The position numbers and the translations under genes were made by a program. Shown one piece after another: positions 30,689-42,907 of a DNA stretch of 64,000 nt. Under the pieces are notes generated by a model. That model made no database searches and was not told the DNA's origin. It saw only the letters and a program-made list of their open reading frames with translations. Source of the DNA: Promethearchaeota archaeon (GTDB lineage Archaea; Asgardarchaeota; Lokiarchaeia; Sigyniarchaeales; SOKP01); NCBI GenBank assembly GCA_016839555.1, contig JAEOUA010000005.1, positions 1-64,000 of the forward strand, read 5' to 3'. Position 1 is the first letter of the stretch. Every line of letters begins with the position of its first letter.

Positions 30689-32029
30689 TTAATGAAACAT
30701 TTCAATGAAGGCGCCTAGCCTGGTCTTAACCTGTTCCACGTTATCCCCAATCTTATTGAAATTTATAACGGTTGTAGGTATTTCAAGTTTATTTCTTATT
30801 TTTTTACGTAGTAATGAATAACAATTAGAGATAGAATGGCAACCAAATATTTGATTGAATACAAGCCCATCTACATTTAATGCTTTTGCTGTCTCAATAT
30901 AGCTGTCAGTGAGAGCATCTTGGTCATATCCTACTCCATTAACTGTTGCGTTAAATAAAAACTTTGCATATTCTTCTACGGGATTAGAGTTTTTTGAAAC
31001 GGGAATAATTTCCAAAAGTTTAAGAATTTCCCAATCTGCGTATATAGTTCGTGCTCCTAATTTATAGAGAATTTCATGAGTTTCGGGCTCCCATCCACCA
31101 AAAACAGGAGTTAATAAAATTCTCGGCATATTAGATACATCCATTCCAATTCCTTTTTCTATTCTTTCTCTGATTTCTTTTACCAAATAGCTAAAATTCT
31201 CCAAATATCTCTGATTATCAGAGTTATAGTCTTGGAAAGATAATCCCAGAAGTGCTAAAATTTCGGCAAATGTCGCGGGATTACATGGATAAAAATCAGA
31301 AGCACTTAATTCAAATAGAATGGTTTTGTAAAATCTCTTAATTTGATTCCCTATACGAAATTGTTTATTAAGACTATTATCTGTAACAATATTTCCAGTT
31401 ACATCTTCAAGCTCAGAAATCGCTTTTGAAACATTATCGGTTAATAATTCTAAGGCATTATTAATATCTCGTGGTGGTATATCCACCCATATTTGTCGCG
31501 GAACAAATTCCTTCAAAGATTCTGAATATTTATTCCACGCACTGCAACGAATCGTAAAATTGATATTAGCATCTAAATTCTTTGCTTTCGATATAAACAT
31601 TCCTGTAAGCGCTGTAATTCCATAACAAAAATCACTTGATATCCCATGTTCAATACCCAAATCATAAAGATCATTATATTTATCATTAATAGTATGAATC
31701 ACATCATCCAGCACTGTATCAAGTATCTTTAATACATCGAATTTCCTTACAAATGAAAGTAATTTTGTGGTTAAATCCCATCCAATCAAACTAGTAGCAG
31801 AATTTAAAGCCGAAAGATAGGAATGAACCTTGAATTTTTCCATCCTTATAGGAAATACAGGAACTCCTCCGGACGCGAAGACTAAATCTGAAAATGGCAG
31901 TGCAACTGATATAAGTTTTTTTCTTTCTTGGAATTTCTTTTTCTTTAAATAGTCTCTCCCTGCTAAGAAATTATAGGCTAGCTGAAGGACAGACTTAAAA
32001 TTCACTACATCATCCGTAAATACACTCAT
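30689..32029 (-). CDS. 2-hydroxyacyl-CoA dehydratase subunit (HgdA/FldB family)
   Basis: Three Fe-S Cys (DFCYG, IRCS, GCHS); C-terminal EQVKTRLGAFIEM. Confidence 0.85.
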   Translation of the reverse strand: MSVFTDDVVNFKSVLQLAYNFLAGRDYLKKKKFQERKKLISVALPFSDLVFASGGVPVFPIRMEKFKVHSYLSALNSATSLIGWDLTTKLLSFVRKFDVLKILDTVLDDVIHTINDKYNDLYDLGIEHGISSDFCYGITALTGMFISKAKNLDANINFTIRCSAWNKYSESLKEFVPRQIWVDIPPRDINNALELLTDNVSKAISELEDVTGNIVTDNSLNKQFRIGNQIKRFYKTILFELSASDFYPCNPATFAEILALLGLSFQDYNSDNQRYLENFSYLVKEIRERIEKGIGMDVSNMPRILLTPVFGGWEPETHEILYKLGARTIYADWEILKLLEIIPVSKNSNPVEEYAKFLFNATVNGVGYDQDALTDSYIETAKALNVDGLVFNQIFGCHSISNCYSLLRKKIRNKLEIPTTVINFNKIGDNVEQVKTRLGAFIEMFH

Positions 32030-32033
32030 TTAA

Positions 32034-33167
32034 TCAAATCATCTCCATAAATGCTTCTATTCTTGTAGATAATTGCCCCCTAATAGAACGGGAATAATCA
32101 CGTTCCAGATTTAATACTTGAACCCCTCGCTCCTGAAGTCTCTCTTTAAATGCAGACTGGAAAAGGCTGAAATGATCGCAGAATTTAATAATGTGGTTAA
32201 TAACTCCGAGCTTGTTGCCGAATTTCTTATGATAATCGTTTACATAATTTTCAATGAAGATAATTTTGTTTTCCAGCGAATTCGGGACACAATGGTCACC
32301 ATAGACATTATTTTCAAATCTATTCGTTAGCAACTCCATGGGATCATCAATAGAATTTAATATTTTGTCAGAGAAAGTTTGAGAATAATAATTATTTCCT
32401 ATCCATGTATCAAATAGTATAATATTACCTCCAATTTCTTCTATTAAATCAATCAAATAATCTCCAATAAAAATGGAGCATCCGGTAAAAATAATTTTTT
32501 TAGAATTATTCTTAGATTGAGATGTATTTCTATGGGTTTCAATGAACTGTTCTATTTCAGGTTGTATTTCTGGTCCAAATAGCATTGCTTCTTGATACAT
32601 TTTTAACTTTTCAGATCCCATAATATTTAGTTTACTTACTTCTTCAACTTTTTTCTTAAAATCATTACGCCTAATTATATTTTCCTTAATTTTATAGTCT
32701 GGAATTCGTTCTCTTGTGATATCCTCAATTTTCTTCTTTAAATGATTTAGTTCTATTTTGTAATATTTTAATGCATTAGAATTTCGAGTATAAGACACAT
32801 AAAAATCTAATCTATCAAGATTAAAATTATCGGAAATAACCTCCGAAACGCATATATTTGAAACGCAATGATTTGATAATAAGATATAATCTGCCAGATT
32901 TAAAAATTCATACATCCTTGGAGCGGAAGAAAAGTATCCAATACAACTCTGAGCATAACTACACGTTGAAGGAGGTAAATATGTATGGCTTGCATCCATT
33001 AATTCGTCATTTCCAGCAAAAATCAATGGTAATGGAGTGAAGCCCGCTGCTTCCAGAAGTTCTATAGGAATATTATCATGAGCGAGAAATGCGATAATTT
33101 TGCTTCCATTGGATTTCTTTTCTTCCAAAAATGAATCGAAACGAGACAAAAGCTCAACTGAGGACAT
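32034..33167 (-). CDS. 2-hydroxyacyl-CoA dehydratase subunit (HgdB/FldC family)
   Basis: PIELLEAAG, TCSY, KFCD, GQLSTRIEAFMEM. Confidence 0.88.
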   Translation of the reverse strand: MSSVELLSRFDSFLEEKKSNGSKIIAFLAHDNIPIELLEAAGFTPLPLIFAGNDELMDASHTYLPPSTCSYAQSCIGYFSSAPRMYEFLNLADYILLSNHCVSNICVSEVISDNFNLDRLDFYVSYTRNSNALKYYKIELNHLKKKIEDITRERIPDYKIKENIIRRNDFKKKVEEVSKLNIMGSEKLKMYQEAMLFGPEIQPEIEQFIETHRNTSQSKNNSKKIIFTGCSIFIGDYLIDLIEEIGGNIILFDTWIGNNYYSQTFSDKILNSIDDPMELLTNRFENNVYGDHCVPNSLENKIIFIENYVNDYHKKFGNKLGVINHIIKFCDHFSLFQSAFKERLQERGVQVLNLERDYSRSIRGQLSTRIEAFMEMI

Positions 33168-33302
33168 ATTGAATTATAAATAATAAATGATATTAATCAA
33201 AAAAAGATAAAATTCTTGATAAAATTTATTGATTTTTATAAAAATAATAATCTATTTATGATATTTATTCATTATATTTTTTTAAATAATCATTATATGG
33301 TT

Positions 33303-34082
33303 TTAATTCGCATTTTTTTCCATTGCTATTAACGCAGCTCCAATAGCTCCCGTTAATTGAGGATATTTTGGGCGGACAATTTCGAAACCCAGTTCTTTTT
33401 CTAAATATTTCTTGACCGCTATATTCTGAGCGACCCCACCAGTAAATACTAATTGTTGCTCAACACCGATTCGCTTTGCCATACTTGCTACTCTTTTTGC
33501 AATTGATTTGTGAATCCCTGCAGCTATATCCTTTTTAAGGCTTCCTTGAGCAAATAAACTAATTACCTCACTTTCAGCAAATACAGTACAAGTAGAACTG
33601 ATCGCGGCAGGTTTATGTGATTCTAAAGCAAGTGTTCCCATATTATCAATTGGGATTTCTAATGCATGTGCCATCACTTCTAAAAAGCGTCCTGTTCCCG
33701 CAGCGCACTTATCGTTCATTTGAAAGTCGATTACATTGCCATTCTTCCTAGATATTAAGATTGCTTTACTATCCTGCCCTCCGATATCAATAACAGATCT
33801 TGCTTCAGGATAAAAATATTGGGCTCCACGAGCATGTGCACTTATTTCAGTGATTCTGTCATCCGCAAATTCTATTGTATTCCGCCCATATCCCGTACTC
33901 ATGATAAACACATCAGTTCTGGAGAGGTTGTTTTTCGTCAATATATCTTTTAATAAATCGCGCCCGACCTTTTTAAAATCATAAGTAGATCGATTTTGAC
34001 GCCAATCTATCATTGTTTTATTCCCGTTGACCAAAACCACTTTAGTTTCTAAAGAACCTATGTCAATACCTATAAATTTCAT
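33303..34082 (-). CDS. 2-hydroxyacyl-CoA dehydratase activator (HgdC/FldI, ASKHA ATPase)
   Basis: GIDIGS, TGYGR, IDIGGQDSK, MNDKCAAGTGRFLE, CTVFAESEVIS. Confidence 0.95.
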   Translation of the reverse strand: MKFIGIDIGSLETKVVLVNGNKTMIDWRQNRSTYDFKKVGRDLLKDILTKNNLSRTDVFIMSTGYGRNTIEFADDRITEISAHARGAQYFYPEARSVIDIGGQDSKAILISRKNGNVIDFQMNDKCAAGTGRFLEVMAHALEIPIDNMGTLALESHKPAAISSTCTVFAESEVISLFAQGSLKKDIAAGIHKSIAKRVASMAKRIGVEQQLVFTGGVAQNIAVKKYLEKELGFEIVRPKYPQLTGAIGAALIAMEKNAN

Positions 34083-37048: not shown

Positions 37049-37252
37049 ATAAGTTTTCCATCTACTTATTTCTGAAATTGAAAATCCCCTTGTATCGTAA
37101 ATTAAAATTCTTTTTCATTTTACTATAATTATTAAATTGTTCAATTAAAAAAAATATAAAGAATTAAATAATTAAAAATATAGCTACTAATTTATATTAC
37201 GAGACTTGTTTTTAACCTCAAAAACGCACCGAATTTAAAAAAAACAGGGAAA

Positions 37253-38206
37253 ATGAGCAAAAAAATTATTATTATAGATCTTGGAACTTATAGCGTAAAG
37301 GTTGGGATAGCAGGAGCCGCAAAACCTCAATATAACATAAGAACTATAATGGGATATTCAAAGAATTCTGAACATCTCCTTTATGGAAATGAAGCATTAA
37401 AAAAGAGTCAAGAGCCGCTTCCATTAATAGATTATAAGTGGGATATCATGGAAATACGATGGAGTAAGATCTTCGAATTTTTTCGCTTTATTTTTGAGGA
37501 AAAATTAAGATTTTCTATCTCTGAATTGAAAAATTATTCTATTGTTTTTTTAATTGGTCCTTTACAACCGCGTTCTCATTTTTTAAAATATTATGAATCT
37601 TTTTTTTCTAAATTTAAAATAGCGAAAATGCTAGTTTTGTCAGCAACCAGGATTGCTTTATTAGCTTCAAGGAAAACAACGGGTATTGTTGTAGATATTG
37701 GATATAAATCAACTCGCGTTGTTCCTTTTTATGAGGGATTTAGACTTCCGCATGCGTTTAATCATCAAGATCTAGCTGGAAAAGATATTGATGATTATGA
37801 TGAAAATATTCTTGAATATCCCACAATTCCAGAGAAAGATTATCTCGCCCCAACTTCAGAATTAATTTTAAAAGCAATTGAAAGATGTGATGAGTCTATA
37901 AAAGATGAATTATATTCGAATATAATACTTTCGGGATGGTGGAGTGCAGATAAAAAAGTCGTAACTTTATTGAAAGAGTCATTGGAAAAAGAAAGGAGTG
38001 ATAAGGATATTAATGTCGTTATTCCTTCTTCTCATTATTATAACTGGTTTTCGGCTTCTCTACTAGCTACTAAAAAATTAAAGAAGATAGCAAAAATAAG
38101 GTATCTTTCAAAAAAAAAATACTATGCTAAGAAAGAATTAGATACTTATCTCACCCTTGCGGGTATTAAAACAAAAAAATGGGGTCTCATTTCATATCCA
38201 TTATGA
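37253..38206 (+). CDS. divergent actin-family protein (actin-related, shortened)
   Basis: IDLGTYSVKVGIAG, LASRKTTGIVVDIG..STRVVPFYEG..LPHA...DLAGKDI.DY and CD..IK.ELYSNIILSG align with actin phosphate-1, phosphate-2 and adenosine motifs. Confidence 0.9.
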   Translation: MSKKIIIIDLGTYSVKVGIAGAAKPQYNIRTIMGYSKNSEHLLYGNEALKKSQEPLPLIDYKWDIMEIRWSKIFEFFRFIFEEKLRFSISELKNYSIVFLIGPLQPRSHFLKYYESFFSKFKIAKMLVLSATRIALLASRKTTGIVVDIGYKSTRVVPFYEGFRLPHAFNHQDLAGKDIDDYDENILEYPTIPEKDYLAPTSELILKAIERCDESIKDELYSNIILSGWWSADKKVVTLLKESLEKERSDKDINVVIPSSHYYNWFSASLLATKKLKKIAKIRYLSKKKYYAKKELDTYLTLAGIKTKKWGLISYPL

Positions 38207-38418: not shown

Positions 38419-39078
38419 ATGAGTTTAAAAAAGAATACCATAAAAAAAACAAAAAACCAAATTCTTACATTACTAATTGAACATTCAAGGATTATTTATA
38501 GCGTTATATCAGAGATGGGAGTATTTTATACCTCATGGAAAGAAAACCCTGAGGGAAATAAAGAAGAAATGGAAAAGAAGAAAAATAAATTACAAATGTT
38601 AGAAGAAGATGCAGATGCTATTAAAATAAGATTGATTAAAGAATTTTCCGAAGCAGGTACTCAAGGTATGGGGAATTATATGACCTTAATCTTACGGATG
38701 GATAATGTAATAAATTCTGCCTTAGAATTCGTTGATCTTTTATCAAAAATTCATAATCTCAATGAAATTAATAATAATATTGAGTCGCGGTATGACAAAC
38801 TTATAAATGAATTACTTAAAATGACAGATATTTTAAAATTAGCAATTAAAAATTTGCAAAATAAACCTCAAAAAGTGTTAGAAAATACGACCACAATCCA
38901 TGAAATCGAAAATGAAATCGATATAATATTCAGAGAATTTTTAGATTATTTATATGATAATGACAATATAAGTATTAGATTAATCTTCAGACTAAGAGAT
39001 AGTATTAAGGTTTTGGAGGAGCTTGCAGATAGAATACATGATATCGGAGATTTAATTAGAGTCATCAGATACTCTTAA
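38419..39078 (+). CDS. DUF47 / PhoU-like phosphate transport regulator
   Basis: LEEDADAIK, IENEIDII, LEELADRIHD repeats. Confidence 0.85.
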   Translation: MSLKKNTIKKTKNQILTLLIEHSRIIYSVISEMGVFYTSWKENPEGNKEEMEKKKNKLQMLEEDADAIKIRLIKEFSEAGTQGMGNYMTLILRMDNVINSALEFVDLLSKIHNLNEINNNIESRYDKLINELLKMTDILKLAIKNLQNKPQKVLENTTTIHEIENEIDIIFREFLDYLYDNDNISIRLIFRLRDSIKVLEELADRIHDIGDLIRVIRYS

Positions 39079-39243: not shown

Positions 39244-40281
39244 TTACCAGCGCCAATAAATATCCTCAGCATGACCAAGCATATTTTCGATATGGATTTT
39301 TTTTCCATCATCCAATATTATATCTCCTGAATAGAAACCATGCATTAAAGCAGAATTCAAATAGATAATACCAAAATTTAGTTTTTCTTTATGTGGAATA
39401 ATCGGTTCTATCACCATATTAAACCTGTCATCATTGCTCGTAAATTTCCATGGTTTGGTAGGATCACGATTCTCATGATGGAAAATAACCTCATCCAGCT
39501 TATGAGCTTTTCCATTATAAAAAACTATATTTTCAGTATGAGTTGCTCCTTCTTTGCTTCCCACTTGACCAAAACCATACCCAATATTAAACGCGACGGG
39601 AAGATCATTTACTTTGCCACAAGCACTTCCCCATAACCAATGTGTCTTATAGGGCCAAATTCCACGACCCCAATCCATTAATCCAAAGGATCTATCTGAT
39701 GTAAATTCATAATTCTCAGTACCAATTGTTATCTTACCTGTAGCAGGCATCATGTTAATTTTATGATTATAATAGAATAATTTGGGCTTTTCATAGCCCG
39801 TTATAACAACAGTATTATCCCATTCTGGTTTATCATCTAAAACGATGCTTCCTTCAATTCCTTTATCTAAAAATGTAGGATCATCGATAGTAAGGATTCT
39901 TTTATTCCCTTTTTTCTCTAAACTAGCATTAAAATCTTCCGTTGGGAATTCTATTAAGCTATCTTCTACTGAACTTTGGGGCAATAATTTAGCTTTCGTG
40001 AAGAATTTGAATGTACCTTTATTAAATCTTTCTTTTTTATTGAAATCAAGCCATACATAACTCATTTGTGTAAGATACCCGATATCTCCAATTGTTAATT
40101 GGATTCCAAAATCTTTATTTAAAATAGAATAATGATCCCATTCCTTTATTCTCCACCAGCTTTTTCCAATATTTTCTTTATTATATGTTATTATCGGTTT
40201 TTTTGCCCAACCCGTCTGAACAAGTGAGCCATCCTCATTAAAGAGCTTTGATGGTTCGGTTATTTCTATTTGTTTACCCAT
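39244..40281 (-). CDS. DUF2804 family protein
   Basis: GWAK, RIKEWDHY, DWGRGIWPY.THW.W, ENI..Y.GK.HKL. Confidence 0.85.
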   Translation of the reverse strand: MGKQIEITEPSKLFNEDGSLVQTGWAKKPIITYNKENIGKSWWRIKEWDHYSILNKDFGIQLTIGDIGYLTQMSYVWLDFNKKERFNKGTFKFFTKAKLLPQSSVEDSLIEFPTEDFNASLEKKGNKRILTIDDPTFLDKGIEGSIVLDDKPEWDNTVVITGYEKPKLFYYNHKINMMPATGKITIGTENYEFTSDRSFGLMDWGRGIWPYKTHWLWGSACGKVNDLPVAFNIGYGFGQVGSKEGATHTENIVFYNGKAHKLDEVIFHHENRDPTKPWKFTSNDDRFNMVIEPIIPHKEKLNFGIIYLNSALMHGFYSGDIILDDGKKIHIENMLGHAEDIYWRW

Positions 40282-40350
40282 TTTCCCAAGTATGATTTAT
40301 TTATTTATTTGTTTGATTCAATTAATATTTTGAAATTAATATAAGTTTTT

Positions 40351-41751
40351 TTATTTATACGTAATCTCTACAGTAGAGAGTTTTTTAATTGCTGGTTTCT
40401 TTTGGCTCCATAATTTTTCTGCTTTATCAACCCATGATTCAAAGTCTTCCGGTGATTCGGGGAATTTTTCATAATGGACCTTAATTTTATTTGCTAAACT
40501 ATTGGCTTTTAATAGTTTCCTAATGTTTTTGAGAGAAAGCTTCCTTGTAATCAATCCCCATAAAATCTTCATTATAAATCCCATCATTTCGCCTAAACTC
40601 ATTTCTTGCTCATATTCTTTATTTGGTTCTGGAAGCTCATCATCCTCGCCAGTTTTATAGATTAATCCCTTTTTAAGAAAATAATTCCATTCTTTTTTGG
40701 AAAAATTTAGTATTCCCGATAATTGCGTAAGTAATCCGGCAAATTTAGCCCCCTGATCCCTAAAATATTCCACATTAATATCCCATAATCTTTCTCGAGT
40801 TAAATAACCTCCTTTCTGAAGCTCCCTATCAATAATCTCCGCAGCAATCATACATAACATCCATGTCGCTGTAACTCCATGTCCAGAGAAGGGGTAAGTT
40901 ACAGCAGCTGCGTCGCCTATACATAAAAATCCATCTGCGACTAAGGAATAGGGAGGTCTTCTATATGGTGTGAAACCTCTTTCCTTTTTGATCACCTCAT
41001 AAGGGGGCAGATCAATTTGATTGAGGAAATCCTCTCGCGCAAGCCGCGCATTTTCATAGGAGCCAGGTTGCCCAACTCCAAGAATAGCCTCATCTTCACT
41101 CAGCGAAGGTCCAAACCATAAAATCCAATAAATATAGTTTGTATCTCTCTCAGGATGTGGCAAATTGGGTTTTGTCCATTTTATATATTGTAGTAAAACA
41201 TACATCACATCATACGGTCCTAATGAAAAAGTTTCGACCCCATAATCCTTAGGTAAGGAGGTTCGAACAACAGCTTTTGTTCCTGAGGCATCTACGATCA
41301 ATTTCGCGTAGTATTCCTTCATTTCTCCATTTTTAGTTGCTTTAATGCCAACTATTTTATTCTCTTGAAAAATTAGGCTTTCAAATTTAGTGGAGAATTC
41401 TAATTGAACTCCATCTGATTCTAAAATTTTATACATTTTGTTAAGAAAGGGAGTTAATCTTACGATTGATAGTAAAGCCCGTGTTTTAATCTCTGTTTCA
41501 AAATCAGGAGTAATTACCGTGGAAGTATCTCGAATTTCAATGCAATCTGGATCTTCAGGATTAAATGGCGGTAAGCCCGCTTTTTTAACTCTATCCGACT
41601 CAAAATGAATCACATCGAGTCGGTTTCCCACATCTTCTCTCTTATCTTTTTCAATAATTTTAACGGAATGACCTTTTTTCGCTAAAATCCAGCCTAAATA
41701 GGTGCCTGCCGTACCGGCGCCAATTATTAGTACATCTATACTTTCACTCAC
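40351..41751 (-). CDS. FAD-dependent oxidoreductase, geranylgeranyl reductase-like
   Basis: IIGAGTAG, VDASG, IGDAA...PFSGHG; GTG start. Confidence 0.85.
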   Translation of the reverse strand: MSESIDVLIIGAGTAGTYLGWILAKKGHSVKIIEKDKREDVGNRLDVIHFESDRVKKAGLPPFNPEDPDCIEIRDTSTVITPDFETEIKTRALLSIVRLTPFLNKMYKILESDGVQLEFSTKFESLIFQENKIVGIKATKNGEMKEYYAKLIVDASGTKAVVRTSLPKDYGVETFSLGPYDVMYVLLQYIKWTKPNLPHPERDTNYIYWILWFGPSLSEDEAILGVGQPGSYENARLAREDFLNQIDLPPYEVIKKERGFTPYRRPPYSLVADGFLCIGDAAAVTYPFSGHGVTATWMLCMIAAEIIDRELQKGGYLTRERLWDINVEYFRDQGAKFAGLLTQLSGILNFSKKEWNYFLKKGLIYKTGEDDELPEPNKEYEQEMSLGEMMGFIMKILWGLITRKLSLKNIRKLLKANSLANKIKVHYEKFPESPEDFESWVDKAEKLWSQKKPAIKKLSTVEITYK

Positions 41752-41890
41752 TTTTTAATTCACATCTTTCTGTATTAAAATCATTTAATCTAATATTATA
41801 ATCCTAAATTATAAATAATATTTAAATGTTAAAAAATTAAAGAATTACATGGACAATTTATAAAAAATAAACCTAATTTGTATATTAACA

Positions 41891-42907
41891 ATGCAAGAAA
41901 AAATTACAGAAAAAACACATATACTTGATGAACAAGGGCATGTAATTCGTCCTGGCTGGTCGAATAGAGATGTATTTATTTATGAACGTGAAAAAATTGC
42001 GAAAAGCAGTTTGCGAATTAAGGAATGGGATTACTGGGAAGTTTTTAATGACCAAGCCCGTGTAATCTTTAATATCTATGATATTGGTTATCTAGGAGTT
42101 GCGGAATATTCTATTCTTGATTTTAATACCAAGGAGTCATATCATGCACAGAGTACACGGCTATTTACACGGGGATCTATTGGGTCTCCTTCTTCTTGGC
42201 AATATGATGAACCATTGGTATTTAAAAAGAAGAAGAATACCATGATATTTGACCGAAATGGAGATAACATCCTTCTTTCTGTGGATTTTCAAAAGGAAGG
42301 TATTAAGGGGGAATTTACATTATATAAAGATCCAAAAATGGATATTATGGTAAATCTTATTCCTTTTGAGGATCCGCGACAGTTCGTATATGTGGTTAAA
42401 ATAATGTGTATGCCAGCAAAAGGAGAGATCACTAAAAAAAATAAGAAATATGTATTTAATGAATCAAATAATAGCTGGGGAATATTAGACTGGACTCGTG
42501 CAGTTTTTCCCTATAAAAATCATTGGAAATGGAGTGTTTCTTCAGGAAAAGTAAATGGTGTTAACTTCGGATTTAATCTGGACTATGGTTTTGGGACGGA
42601 ATCTAGTAAAAGTATGATATTCTACGATGGCGTGGGGCATCATTTAGATGAAGTGTATTATCAGCATGATAAGAAAAATCTTAAAAAGCCACTTAAAATT
42701 ACGAGTCCTGATGATCGTGTCAATTTAGTGCTTAAGCCCAAATGCGTGGATAAACACAGTATTAATTATGGAATTTTATATATGAAAGGATTTAATACGT
42801 ATGGATATTTCACAGGGGAGGTTGTTCTTGATGATGGGACTGTTGTAGAAATAAAGGAAAAAGATAAACTCTTTGGATGGGCTGAAGAGTTCTCTCAAAA
42901 ATGGTAA
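41891..42907 (+). CDS. DUF2804 family protein (paralog)
   Basis: RIKEWDYW, DWTRAVFPYKNHWKW; divergent from the oxidoreductase. Confidence 0.85.
   Translation: MQEKITEKTHILDEQGHVIRPGWSNRDVFIYEREKIAKSSLRIKEWDYWEVFNDQARVIFNIYDIGYLGVAEYSILDFNTKESYHAQSTRLFTRGSIGSPSSWQYDEPLVFKKKKNTMIFDRNGDNILLSVDFQKEGIKGEFTLYKDPKMDIMVNLIPFEDPRQFVYVVKIMCMPAKGEITKKNKKYVFNESNNSWGILDWTRAVFPYKNHWKWSVSSGKVNGVNFGFNLDYGFGTESSKSMIFYDGVGHHLDEVYYQHDKKNLKKPLKITSPDDRVNLVLKPKCVDKHSINYGILYMKGFNTYGYFTGEVVLDDGTVVEIKEKDKLFGWAEEFSQKW

What the first reader, a model, noticed from the sequence alone, without database searches (positions are those of the whole stretch)
37253..38206. Minimal actin: subdomain 4 deleted, D-loop shortened, adenosine loop altered
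Seen: a 317-aa actin homolog. Only 20 residues separate AGKDIDDY from ELILKAIERCD, whereas actin has about 87 (residues 189-275), so roughly 65-70 aa of subdomain 4 and the hydrophobic plug are missing. The D-loop is about 10 aa shorter, LSGGT becomes LSGWW, DNGSG/DSGDG become DLGTY/DIGYK, and there is a basic C-terminal extension. Established: subdomains 2 and 4 and the plug make filament contacts. Inference: a non-polymerising Asgard actin-related protein, possibly a filament capper or a decoy for profilin/gelsolin.
Basis: partly seen in the sequence, partly recalled or inferred. Interest (0 to 1): 0.7.

Follow-up and report, generated by a model that had tools for sequence, protein, structure and literature searches.

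The report
Archaeal actin relative missing one subdomain
A Lokiarchaeal (Asgard) genome encodes a small, conserved actin relative that has cleanly lost one of actin's four subdomains; this is a rare, natural "three-quarter actin" whose job (capping, partner binding or a simplified filament) is still untested.

Summary
Window 37253-38206 (+) encodes a 317-aa protein that passes Pfam Actin (112.6 bits). It matches actin in two blocks, with about 67 residues of subdomain 4 and the plug replaced by a 20-residue linker. The D-loop is 9-10 residues shorter. DLGTY, DIGYK and LSGWW are present as described.

It is not an artefact or a lone decaying copy:
- Seven further homologs (38-85% identity, 295-328 aa) share the same deletion boundaries and form one clade (SH-aLRT 99).
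- Contigs from three samples cross the junction unchanged.
- dN/dS is 0.23-0.27.
- An exhaustive profile search found no close full-length relative.

An AlphaFold model (pLDDT 94.9) superposes on actin at Z 33.9, 2.0 Å over 290 residues.

The family is rare: 4 of 161 genomes of the class, and one of those copies is frameshifted.

Function is inferred only. The phosphate-binding Asp/Lys and the barbed-face W-loop are kept. The catalytic Gln/His and the adenosine Gly-Gly are not.

My leading reading is a non-propagating actin-related protein that works through its barbed face. The bacterial actin AlfA also lacks this subdomain yet polymerises, so "non-polymerising" is unproven.

The same scan flagged this same stretch once before in an overlapping window.

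The parts
37253..38206 (+). Coding sequence of the 317-aa mini-actin (P0001), stop codon included
   Evidence: ORF list and translation; Pfam Actin 112.6 bits; AlphaFold model pLDDT 94.9, matching actin at Z 33.9
37277..37291 (+). Phosphate-1 motif DLGTY (residues 9-13). D9, G11, Y13 and K16 are invariant in the family. Tyr replaces actin Gly15.
   Evidence: Alignment A1; positions. Tyr sits at Asp+4, the same position as Phe12 of AlfA (D8, G10, F12). The full-length paralog C10_374 also has Tyr here.
37361..37375 (+). Remnant of the D-loop (residues ~37-41, KNSEH), a tight turn 9-10 residues shorter than in Lokiactin
   Evidence: Alignment with the genome's own paralogs; secondary structure of the model, strands 32-36 and 42-44
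37694..37717 (+). Phosphate-2 motif DIGYKSTR (residues 148-155). D148, G150, K152, S153, T154 and R155 are invariant. Actin Gly158 is replaced by Lys and His161 by Arg.
37730..37756 (+). W-loop of the barbed face, YEGFRLPHA (residues 160-168), one of the stretches most like Lokiactin (EGFALSHA)
   Evidence: Identity profile against Lokiactin: residues 137-184 score 0.35-0.45 against an overall 0.25; P158, Y160, G162, H167 and A168 are invariant
37799..37858 (+). 20-residue linker (residues 183-202) standing in for about 87 residues of actin subdomain 4 and the hydrophobic plug. P190 and K195 are invariant.
   Evidence: Contigs of three samples cross it with no joint and no differences.
37928..37942 (+). 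Adenosine motif changed from LSGG(S/T) to LSGWW (residues 226-230)
   Evidence: G228 and W229 are invariant in the 8 full-length members. The split copy of G155 has GQV instead.
38156..38203 (+). C-terminal extension LAGIKTKKWGLISYPL (residues 302-317). It is conserved in 6 of 8 members and lies outside the actin fold.
   Evidence: Alignment A1. Atlas and PDB alignments cover residues 1-304/305 in many rows. The motif occurs nowhere else in the genome.
38419..39078 (+). Downstream neighbour: a 219-aa helical protein with a weak PhoU_div/DUF47 match. It is listed as context only; no functional link is shown.
   Evidence: Pfam 28.4 bits. It lies downstream of the mini-actin in the loci of P0002, P0003 and P0006 at 74-92% identity, but the wider synteny is kept there too, and it is absent from the loci of P0004, P0007 and P0008.

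Best explanation
The gene encodes a real, selected, three-subdomain member of the eukaryote-type actin/ARP family. One ancestral deletion removed subdomain 4 and the hydrophobic plug, and the D-loop was trimmed. Subdomains 1 and 3 remain actin-like. That covers the phosphate-binding Asp/Lys core and the barbed face (W-loop YEGF.LPHA and the CD..I..LYSNI stretch). Inferred mechanism: the protein acts as a non-propagating actin-fold unit. It would dock through its barbed face onto the pointed face of Lokiactin (monomer or filament end), or onto barbed-face ligands such as profilin. Because it lacks the pointed-face elements, it would offer no site for the next subunit, so it would behave as a terminal cap or sequestering partner. 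It probably still binds the phosphate part of a nucleotide but hydrolyses poorly, because the residues aligned with actin Gln137 and His161 are Ala and Arg. The adenine pocket is remodelled (Gly-Gly to Gly-Trp). What is shown: the architecture, its conservation, selection, and rarity. What is inferred: the binding partners, capping, and the nucleotide state.
For: Architecture:
- Pfam Actin matches in two blocks.
- About 67 residues are missing relative to the genome's own Lokiactin.
- The model has pLDDT 94.9 and matches actin at Z 33.9, 2.0 Å over 290 residues.

A real, conserved family:
- Eight members at 38-85% identity share the same boundaries.
- They form one clade, SH-aLRT 99.
- No closer full-length relative appeared among 1.84 billion representatives.
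- The junction is identical in contigs of three samples.
- dN/dS is 0.23-0.27.
- No separate subdomain-4 gene exists in the genome.

Core and barbed face kept:
- D9, G11, K16, D148, G150, T154, Y160, G162, H167, A168, D213, L220, S222, N223 and I224 are invariant.
- The stretches most like Lokiactin are residues 137-184 and 209-232.

Pointed face lost: subdomain 4 is gone, the D-loop is short, and P0007 has lost a further 17 residues of subdomain 2.

Catalytic residues changed: Gln to Ala131 and His to Arg155.

Partner lead: a Loki-profilin homolog (5yed, E 1.2e-10) lies beside the mini-actin in two divergent branches. In G155 the mini-actin is frameshifted and that profilin is gone.

That subdomains 2 and 4 form the pointed face, and that the barbed-face groove accepts the D-loop, profilin and WH2, is established actin structural knowledge, not tested here.
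Against: - No binding, capping, nucleotide or expression data exist.
- AlfA shows that an actin without subdomain IIB can still polymerise and hydrolyse ATP.
- The C-terminal half of the barbed-face groove is poorly conserved: identity to Lokiactin is 0.07-0.15 over residues 272-299, and there is a 3-residue basic insertion.
- The profilin paralog is absent from this genome and from four of the six distinct loci. It also occurs in about 55 genomes that have no mini-actin.
- The family evolves faster than all six neighbouring genes tested.
- It is present in only 4 of 161 genomes, and one copy is broken. That fits a dispensable accessory role at best.
Confidence: 0.4

Rival explanations
1. An AlfA-like simplified filament. 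The mini-actin would polymerise on its own with rebuilt longitudinal and cross-strand contacts, binding ATP with the adenine swung away from the adenosine motif and stacked on Tyr13 of the phosphate-1 loop. This would be a convergent repeat, inside the eukaryote-type actin family, of what AlfA did among bacterial actins.
For: AlfA (275 aa) lacks subdomain IIB, forms double-helical filaments and hydrolyses ATP. Its adenine is rotated about 120 degrees and sandwiched by Phe12 and Tyr255, with phosphate-1 formed by D8 and G10. The mini-actin has an invariant Tyr at the same Asp+4 position (D9, G11, Y13). It keeps invariant phosphate-binding D9, K16 and D148, and its Gly-Gly adenosine doublet is no longer kept, as expected if the base no longer sits there.
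Against: Tyr at Asp+4 is also present in a full-length paralog that retains subdomain 4 (C10_374, DIGAYSSK), so it is not an adaptation to the deletion. AlfA keeps its Gly-Gly, whereas here a bulky Trp replaces the second Gly. The residues aligned with the catalytic Gln and His are lost. The D-loop and subdomain 2, which carry much of AlfA's compensating contacts, are reduced here and further deleted in P0007. No adaptor or centromere-like partner is evident. Self-assembly could not be modelled.
Confidence: 0.2
2. A dedicated partner or decoy for barbed-face actin-binding proteins, above all profilin. The mini-actin would bind a profilin paralog (or gelsolin) through its retained W-loop and subdomain-3 surface, and so buffer or redirect those regulators rather than touching Lokiactin filaments.
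For: A 126-aa homolog of Loki profilin (5yed E 1.2e-10; 5zzb is the LokiProfilin2-actin complex) lies 100 nt downstream on the same strand in the P0008-type loci (L013, G152). A 47.6% identical copy lies 1.25 kb away in the P0004 locus. In other genomes this profilin sits in varied contexts with no actin nearby. In G155 the mini-actin is frameshifted and the profilin is missing. H167, the aromatic at position 163 and D213 correspond to actin H173, Y169 and D286, which contact profilin according to my own knowledge of the profilin-actin structures.
Against: There are only two independent neighbourhoods. This window's genome has no ortholog of that profilin (the best match is 35%, the canonical profilin on another contig). 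About 55 genomes carry the profilin without a mini-actin. The C-terminal actin residues that contact profilin are not conserved. No binding test was possible.
Confidence: 0.2
3. A nearly neutral, decaying paralog. After the deletion the gene would have lost its cytoskeletal role and now persist in a few lineages on its way to loss.
For: It is present in 4 of 161 genomes of the class, and one copy is split by a frameshift. It has the highest dN/dS of the genes compared in the region, 0.23 against 0.06-0.16. Charge is variable, and one member carries an extra deletion.
Against: dN/dS is well below 1. The frame stays open in eight members down to 38% identity, with 53 invariant columns that include the functional motifs, a conserved linker and a conserved C-terminal motif. 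The fold prediction is confident.
Confidence: 0.08

Closest known systems
Lokiactin and eukaryotic actin / actin-related proteins (Pfam PF00022)
   Same: Same family by sequence (112.6 bits; 25-31% identity) and by fold (Z 33.9, 2.0 Å over 290 residues). Subdomains 1, 2 (reduced) and 3, the DxG phosphate motifs, the W-loop and connect-2 (YNW) are kept.
   Different: Subdomain 4 and the hydrophobic plug are absent, and the D-loop is 9-10 residues shorter. The adenosine Gly-Gly has become Gly-Trp. The residues aligned with the catalytic Gln and His are Ala and Arg. There is an extra conserved C-terminal motif. The protein lies outside the Lokiactin clade on a long stem.
AlfA, plasmid-segregating bacterial actin of Bacillus subtilis pLS32
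   Same: It is the only described actin lacking subdomain IIB (= subdomain 4). It is a small protein (275 aa) in which a short loop replaces the subdomain, and it has an aromatic residue at Asp+4 of the phosphate-1 motif.
   Different: AlfA belongs to the ParM/Alp-like bacterial actins and is plasmid-borne with the adaptor AlfB. It keeps the Gly-Gly doublet and its catalytic residues, and it is shown to polymerise. The mini-actin is nested by sequence and fold among eukaryote-type actins and is chromosomal. Its loss of the subdomain is therefore most likely independent. Its assembly is untested.
Arp10/Arp11 at the pointed end of the dynactin Arp1 filament (functional analogy only, from my own knowledge)
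   Same: It is an actin-fold protein that joins a filament through its barbed face and ends it, because its pointed face cannot accept another subunit.
   Different: Arp11 keeps all four subdomains and is blocked by partner proteins. No orthology is shown here (the tree is unresolved), and no capping has been tested.
FtsA
   Same: It is an actin-fold protein that has lost one canonical subdomain (IB), which shows that the fold tolerates subdomain loss.
   Different: FtsA lost a different subdomain, gained a compensating inserted domain and has a membrane-targeting helix. It is bacterial and only remotely related.

Membership tests
Actin family (Pfam PF00022) | Whole-protein score above the curated gathering threshold | tested here: met
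   112.6 bits against a cut-off of 27, E 2.2e-32. All eight members carry PF00022.
Actin family (Pfam PF00022) | Phosphate-1 and phosphate-2 DxG motifs | tested here: met
   D9-L-G11 and D148-I-G150 are invariant in the family. The following residues differ from actin (TY for SG, YK for DG).
Actin family (Pfam PF00022) | Adenosine motif Gly-Gly doublet | tested here: not met
   The motif is LSGWW. G228 is kept, but the second Gly is Trp229 in all 8 full-length members. It is nearly invariant Gly in 86 other actins.
Actin family (Pfam PF00022) | Four-subdomain architecture (1, 2, 3, 4) | tested here: not met
   About 67 residues of subdomain 4 are replaced by a 20-residue linker. 290 of 317 residues superpose on the rest of actin.
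Lokiactin (conserved Asgard actin clade) | Groups with Lokiactins in a phylogeny | tested here: not met
   The two Lokiactins of this genome cluster with other Asgard actins. The mini-actins form a separate clade (SH-aLRT 99) on a stem of 0.76, and their weak placement beside C4_398 and P0121 is unresolved at 78.
Eukaryotic ARP classes (Arp1-Arp10) | Orthology to a named ARP class | tested here: inconclusive
   The nearest full-length hits are a mix of eukaryotic actins/centractin and Asgard ARPs at similar scores. The deep branches of the tree are unsupported.
AlfA-type actins lacking subdomain IIB | Absence of subdomain IIB | tested here: met
   for the mini-actin; the AlfA feature is taken.
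AlfA-type actins lacking subdomain IIB | Sequence or fold relationship closer to AlfA/ParM-like actins than to other actins | tested here: inconclusive
   All listed PDB matches, by sequence and by fold, are eukaryotic actins or ARPs. AlfA was not listed, which does not exclude it. No AlfA sequence could be fetched.
AlfA-type actins lacking subdomain IIB | Nucleotide-dependent polymerisation | not testable with these tools
   It needs purified protein.
Syringactin (NCBIfam NF040575) | Score above the curated cut-off of 300 bits | tested here: not met
   23.1 bits on residues 196-275 only. The genome's Lokiactins score 100-105 bits on the same profile part, so the hit reflects only the general actin C-terminus.
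Pointed-end capping actin-fold proteins (functional class) | Binds the pointed end of an actin-type filament and blocks subunit exchange | not testable with these tools
   It requires TIRF or sedimentation assays with Lokiactin.

The most novel reading that the evidence does not exclude
A eukaryote-type actin fold reduced to three subdomains that has acquired a new working mode. One possibility is the first archaeal pointed-end cap for Lokiactin filaments, with a Trp-remodelled (possibly nucleotide-independent) cleft. The other is an independently evolved AlfA-like minimal filament inside the lineage that gave rise to eukaryotic actin.
Probability: 0.2. Interest if true: 0.8.

Novelty: new variant of a known kind. 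Interest (0 to 1): 0.55.

Why it matters
Asgard archaea are the model for how the regulated eukaryotic actin cytoskeleton arose, yet none of their actin-related proteins has a known function. This family is a natural deletion experiment. It is a eukaryote-type actin without subdomain 4, kept by selection, with an actin-like barbed face and a rebuilt nucleotide cleft.

I found no description of such a form among eukaryote-type actins in the searched literature. The only precedent is bacterial AlfA.

If it caps or sequesters, it would add a new class of regulator to the archaeal actin toolkit. If it polymerises, it would show that loss of subdomain IIB is a repeatable route to minimal filaments. 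Either way it gives a small, well-predicted protein with clear, cheap biochemical tests.

Its weight for eukaryogenesis is limited by its rarity: 4 of 161 genomes of the class.

Tried and rejected
- **Complex prediction.** No verdict.
- **RNA evidence.** No RNA holder was listed among public runs, so nothing can be said about expression.
- **First AlphaFold run.** The run with only the 8 family sequences gave pLDDT 70.5 with a disordered linker. It was superseded by the 94-sequence alignment.
- **'Syringactin' NCBIfam hit.** This is a general actin C-terminus match, far below the cut-off, and no paper holds the word.
- **Other short actins.** P0064, P0033 and P0050 from the profile search (316-333 aa) carry canonical or near-canonical phosphate-1 (DNGSG / DIGSF) and LSGGSS motifs. 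They look like ordinary actins with missing internal segments, not members of this family.
- **AlfA sequence.** An attempt to fetch it by a remembered plasmid accession failed. The positional comparison therefore rests on residue numbers given in the paper.
- **ESM Atlas shape search.** Only full-length actin clusters were found.
- **Metagenome scan.** Only further copies of P0002 were found.
- **Subdomain 4 supplied in trans.** Only the five full-length paralogs match, so none was found with this query.
- **C-terminal motif elsewhere in the genome.** None found.
- **Extra contig pieces piling up at 37143-37199.** These come from AT-rich low-complexity intergenic sequence, not from a repeat element.
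- **Sigma-70 promoter scan.** It gave no more sites than shuffles and does not apply to archaea. A TATA-like TTTATATT lies about 45 nt upstream of the ATG (read by eye).
- **Downstream DUF47-like gene as a partner.** It is conserved only where the whole neighbourhood is conserved, so this is not independent evidence.

Full report
**The observation**

Window 37253-38206 (+) is an open frame of 317 codons from an ATG. It passes Pfam Actin at 112.6 bits against a cut-off of 27. The match comes in two pieces. Residues 4-190 cover profile positions 5-190, and the C-terminal part (about residues 200-275) covers positions 305-385.

The best sequence matches among solved structures are eukaryotic actins (E 2e-24). 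Query 5-~190 aligns to chain 10-~200 of Plasmodium actin, and query 206-274 to chain 282-352.

- DLGTY at 9-13
- DIGYK at 148-152
- LSGWW at 226-230
- AGKDIDDY at 175-182
- ELILKAIERCD at 203-213, exactly 20 residues after AGKDIDDY

I aligned the protein with the five other actin-family proteins of the same genome. Query 185-208 spans Lokiactin 198-288, a net loss of about 67 residues. The D-loop is 9-10 residues shorter. All five paralogs keep a full subdomain 4.

**Artefact or lone decay?**

Neither.
- A word-indexed search of 5.8 billion proteins returned seven relatives of 295-328 aa at 38-85% identity, all called actin by Pfam. They come from several metagenomes and from an NCBI Lokiarchaeota MAG.
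- All have the same deletion boundaries, within two residues, and 53 invariant columns.
- An exhaustive profile search of 1.84 billion representatives, with no length limit, found the family and three fragments. Scores then dropped steeply to ordinary actins (at most 174 bits, in two or more stretches). So there is no close full-length relative.
- Contigs of three samples of one marine-sediment study cross 37790-37860 with no joint and no differences. One of these samples may be the source of the assembly.
- Nei-Gojobori dN/dS among the three closest members is 0.23-0.27. That is purifying selection, but weaker than on six neighbouring genes compared between the same two genomes, which score 0.06-0.16.
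- No separate gene for subdomain 4 exists in the genome.

**Structure**

With the family alone, AlphaFold was unsure: pLDDT 70.5 with a disordered linker. With a 94-sequence alignment that adds diverse actins, the model reaches pLDDT 94.9 and pTM 0.92.

The model superposes on Dictyostelium actin 3ci5 at Z 33.9, rmsd 2.0 Å, over 290 of its 317 residues and spanning actin residues 4-375. In ESM Atlas it matches only full-length actin clusters, at TM 0.85 by query.

The protein is therefore actin subdomains 1, 2 (reduced) and 3, plus the first helix of subdomain 4, joined by a 13-residue loop. A C-terminal hairpin lies outside the actin fold.

**Family and distribution**

In a quick maximum-likelihood tree of 99 actins the eight mini-actins form one clade (SH-aLRT 99) on a long stem of 0.76. 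They lie outside the Lokiactin clade. Their weak pairing with a divergent paralog of the same genome is unresolved. One ancestral deletion is the simplest reading.

There are two subtypes:
- Type A comprises P0001-P0007 and has the GWW motif. All but the shorter P0007 also carry the LAGIKTKKWGLISYPL tail.
- Type B comprises P0008 and the G155 fragments. It has GWN or GQV and no such tail.

Only four of 161 species-representative genomes of the class carry a member:
- this genome;
- one genome of another family, at 63% identity;
- two genomes of the same genus, at 39% identity.

The records are named Promethearchaeota or Promethearchaeia, that is, Lokiarchaeal Asgard archaea.

In one of the same-genus genomes the gene is split by a frameshift into ORFs of 129 and 175 aa.

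**What the residues say**

Kept and invariant:
- D9, G11 and K16 (actin D11, G13, K18), and D148, G150 and T154 (D154, G156, T160). These are the phosphate- and metal-binding core.
- The W-loop Y160, G162, H167 and A168.
- D213, L220, S222, N223 and I224 in the subdomain-3 stretch that faces the next subunit.
- Y263, N264 and W265 of connect-2.

The stretches most like Lokiactin are residues 137-184 and 209-232.

Changed:
- The residues aligned with the catalytic Gln137 and His161 are Ala131 and Arg155.
- Gly158 is an invariant Lys.
- The second Gly of the adenosine doublet is Trp.

The odd P-loops are not special to this protein. Full-length ARPs of the same genome read DIGAYSSK and EIGESSTR. 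Only the Gly-Trp change and the deletion are unique. Charge is not conserved, with pI ranging from 6.3 to 9.4.

**Mechanism**

Established actin structural knowledge is this. Subdomains 2 and 4 form the pointed face that receives the next subunit. The groove between subdomains 1 and 3 (the barbed face) receives the D-loop of the neighbouring subunit and also binds profilin, gelsolin and WH2 motifs.

A protein with a preserved barbed face and a removed pointed face can join an actin assembly but cannot be extended. That makes a pointed-end cap or a sequestering partner the most economical reading, at about 0.4. It would retain phosphate binding but have poor hydrolysis.

AlfA of Bacillus plasmid pLS32 lacks subdomain IIB, still forms double-helical filaments and hydrolyses ATP. 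It holds the adenine rotated about 120 degrees between Phe12 and Tyr255, with phosphate-1 formed by D8 and G10. The mini-actin has an invariant Tyr at the same Asp+4 position and no longer keeps the Gly-Gly doublet. An AlfA-like mode is therefore a live rival, at about 0.2. It is weakened because the same Tyr occurs in a paralog that keeps subdomain 4.

**A partner lead**

In the type B loci the gene 100 nt downstream encodes a 126-aa protein that matches Loki profilin structures (5yed E 1.2e-10; 5zzb). A 47.6% identical copy lies 1.25 kb from the type A gene P0004.

This profilin paralog is common. About 55 of 161 genomes have a match above 100 bits. In the genomes I inspected that lack a mini-actin, it has no actin beside it. 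In G155 the frameshifted mini-actin lies directly before the thermosome gene, and the profilin is absent from the genome.

This is suggestive of a barbed-face interaction. But it rests on two neighbourhoods, and this window's genome lacks that paralog altogether. The window's own downstream gene is a DUF47-like helical protein. It is conserved only where the whole neighbourhood is conserved.

**Comparison and verdict**

By sequence and fold this is a member of the actin/ARP family. It fails two of that family's structural hallmarks: four subdomains, and the Gly-Gly adenosine motif.

It is not a Lokiactin, not a member of NCBIfam 'syringactin' (23 bits against a cut-off of 300), and not assignable to a eukaryotic ARP class. 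The closest functional and architectural precedent is AlfA, most likely by convergence.

I found no description of a eukaryote-type actin lacking subdomain 4 in the literature searches.

I rate it a new variant of a known kind and real. It is moderately interesting: a rare but selected minimal actin with clear tests, whose function remains inferred.

The same stretch was flagged once before by this scan, in an overlapping window.

Noticed in passing
L013:5445-9243 (also L032/L050 = G152, SHMW01000020): The type B mini-actin sits in a fixed order: AsnC-type regulator, mini-actin, 126-aa profilin paralog, thermosome (Cpn60/TCP1) gene. An actin-fold gene beside a group II chaperonin is notable, because eukaryotic actin folding depends on CCT. 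The order is seen only within one genus.
   Followed up: partly
L051:3989-4926 (JAWOFX010000093, G155): The mini-actin is split by a frameshift into ORFs of 129 and 175 aa, the adenosine motif reads GQV, and the neighbouring profilin gene is missing. This is either decay of the pair or an assembly error.
   Followed up: partly
L033-L043 and table: A distinct profilin paralog of 126-132 aa (45-60% identical to L013:7050-7427, about 35% to the canonical Loki profilin) is present in roughly 55 of 161 genomes of the class, in varied contexts. It is absent from this window's genome.
   Followed up: partly
L004:1477-2976 (G000 contig C4, 500-aa actin-related protein): This full-length ARP carries an insertion of about 110 residues in subdomain 3 with four CxxC pairs (CPKC, CPEC, CPLC, CPYC). 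That amounts to two zinc-ribbon-like motifs inside an actin fold.
   Followed up: no
window 39244-42907: Two DUF2804 paralogs (345 and 338 aa) flank an FAD-dependent oxidoreductase. This block is present here and in L009 but absent from the otherwise syntenic locus L012, so it is an insertion relative to that relative.
   Followed up: no
L014:6001-6888 (P0007): One family member has lost a further 17 residues of subdomain 2 and lacks the C-terminal WGLISYPL end, so the pointed-face side of the fold is further reduced.
   Followed up: no
window 30689-34082: There are two HGD-D (2-hydroxyacyl-CoA dehydratase D-component) genes and a BcrAD/BadFG-type activator ATPase upstream on the minus strand. 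This is an ordinary fermentative gene set, syntenic in relatives.
   Followed up: no
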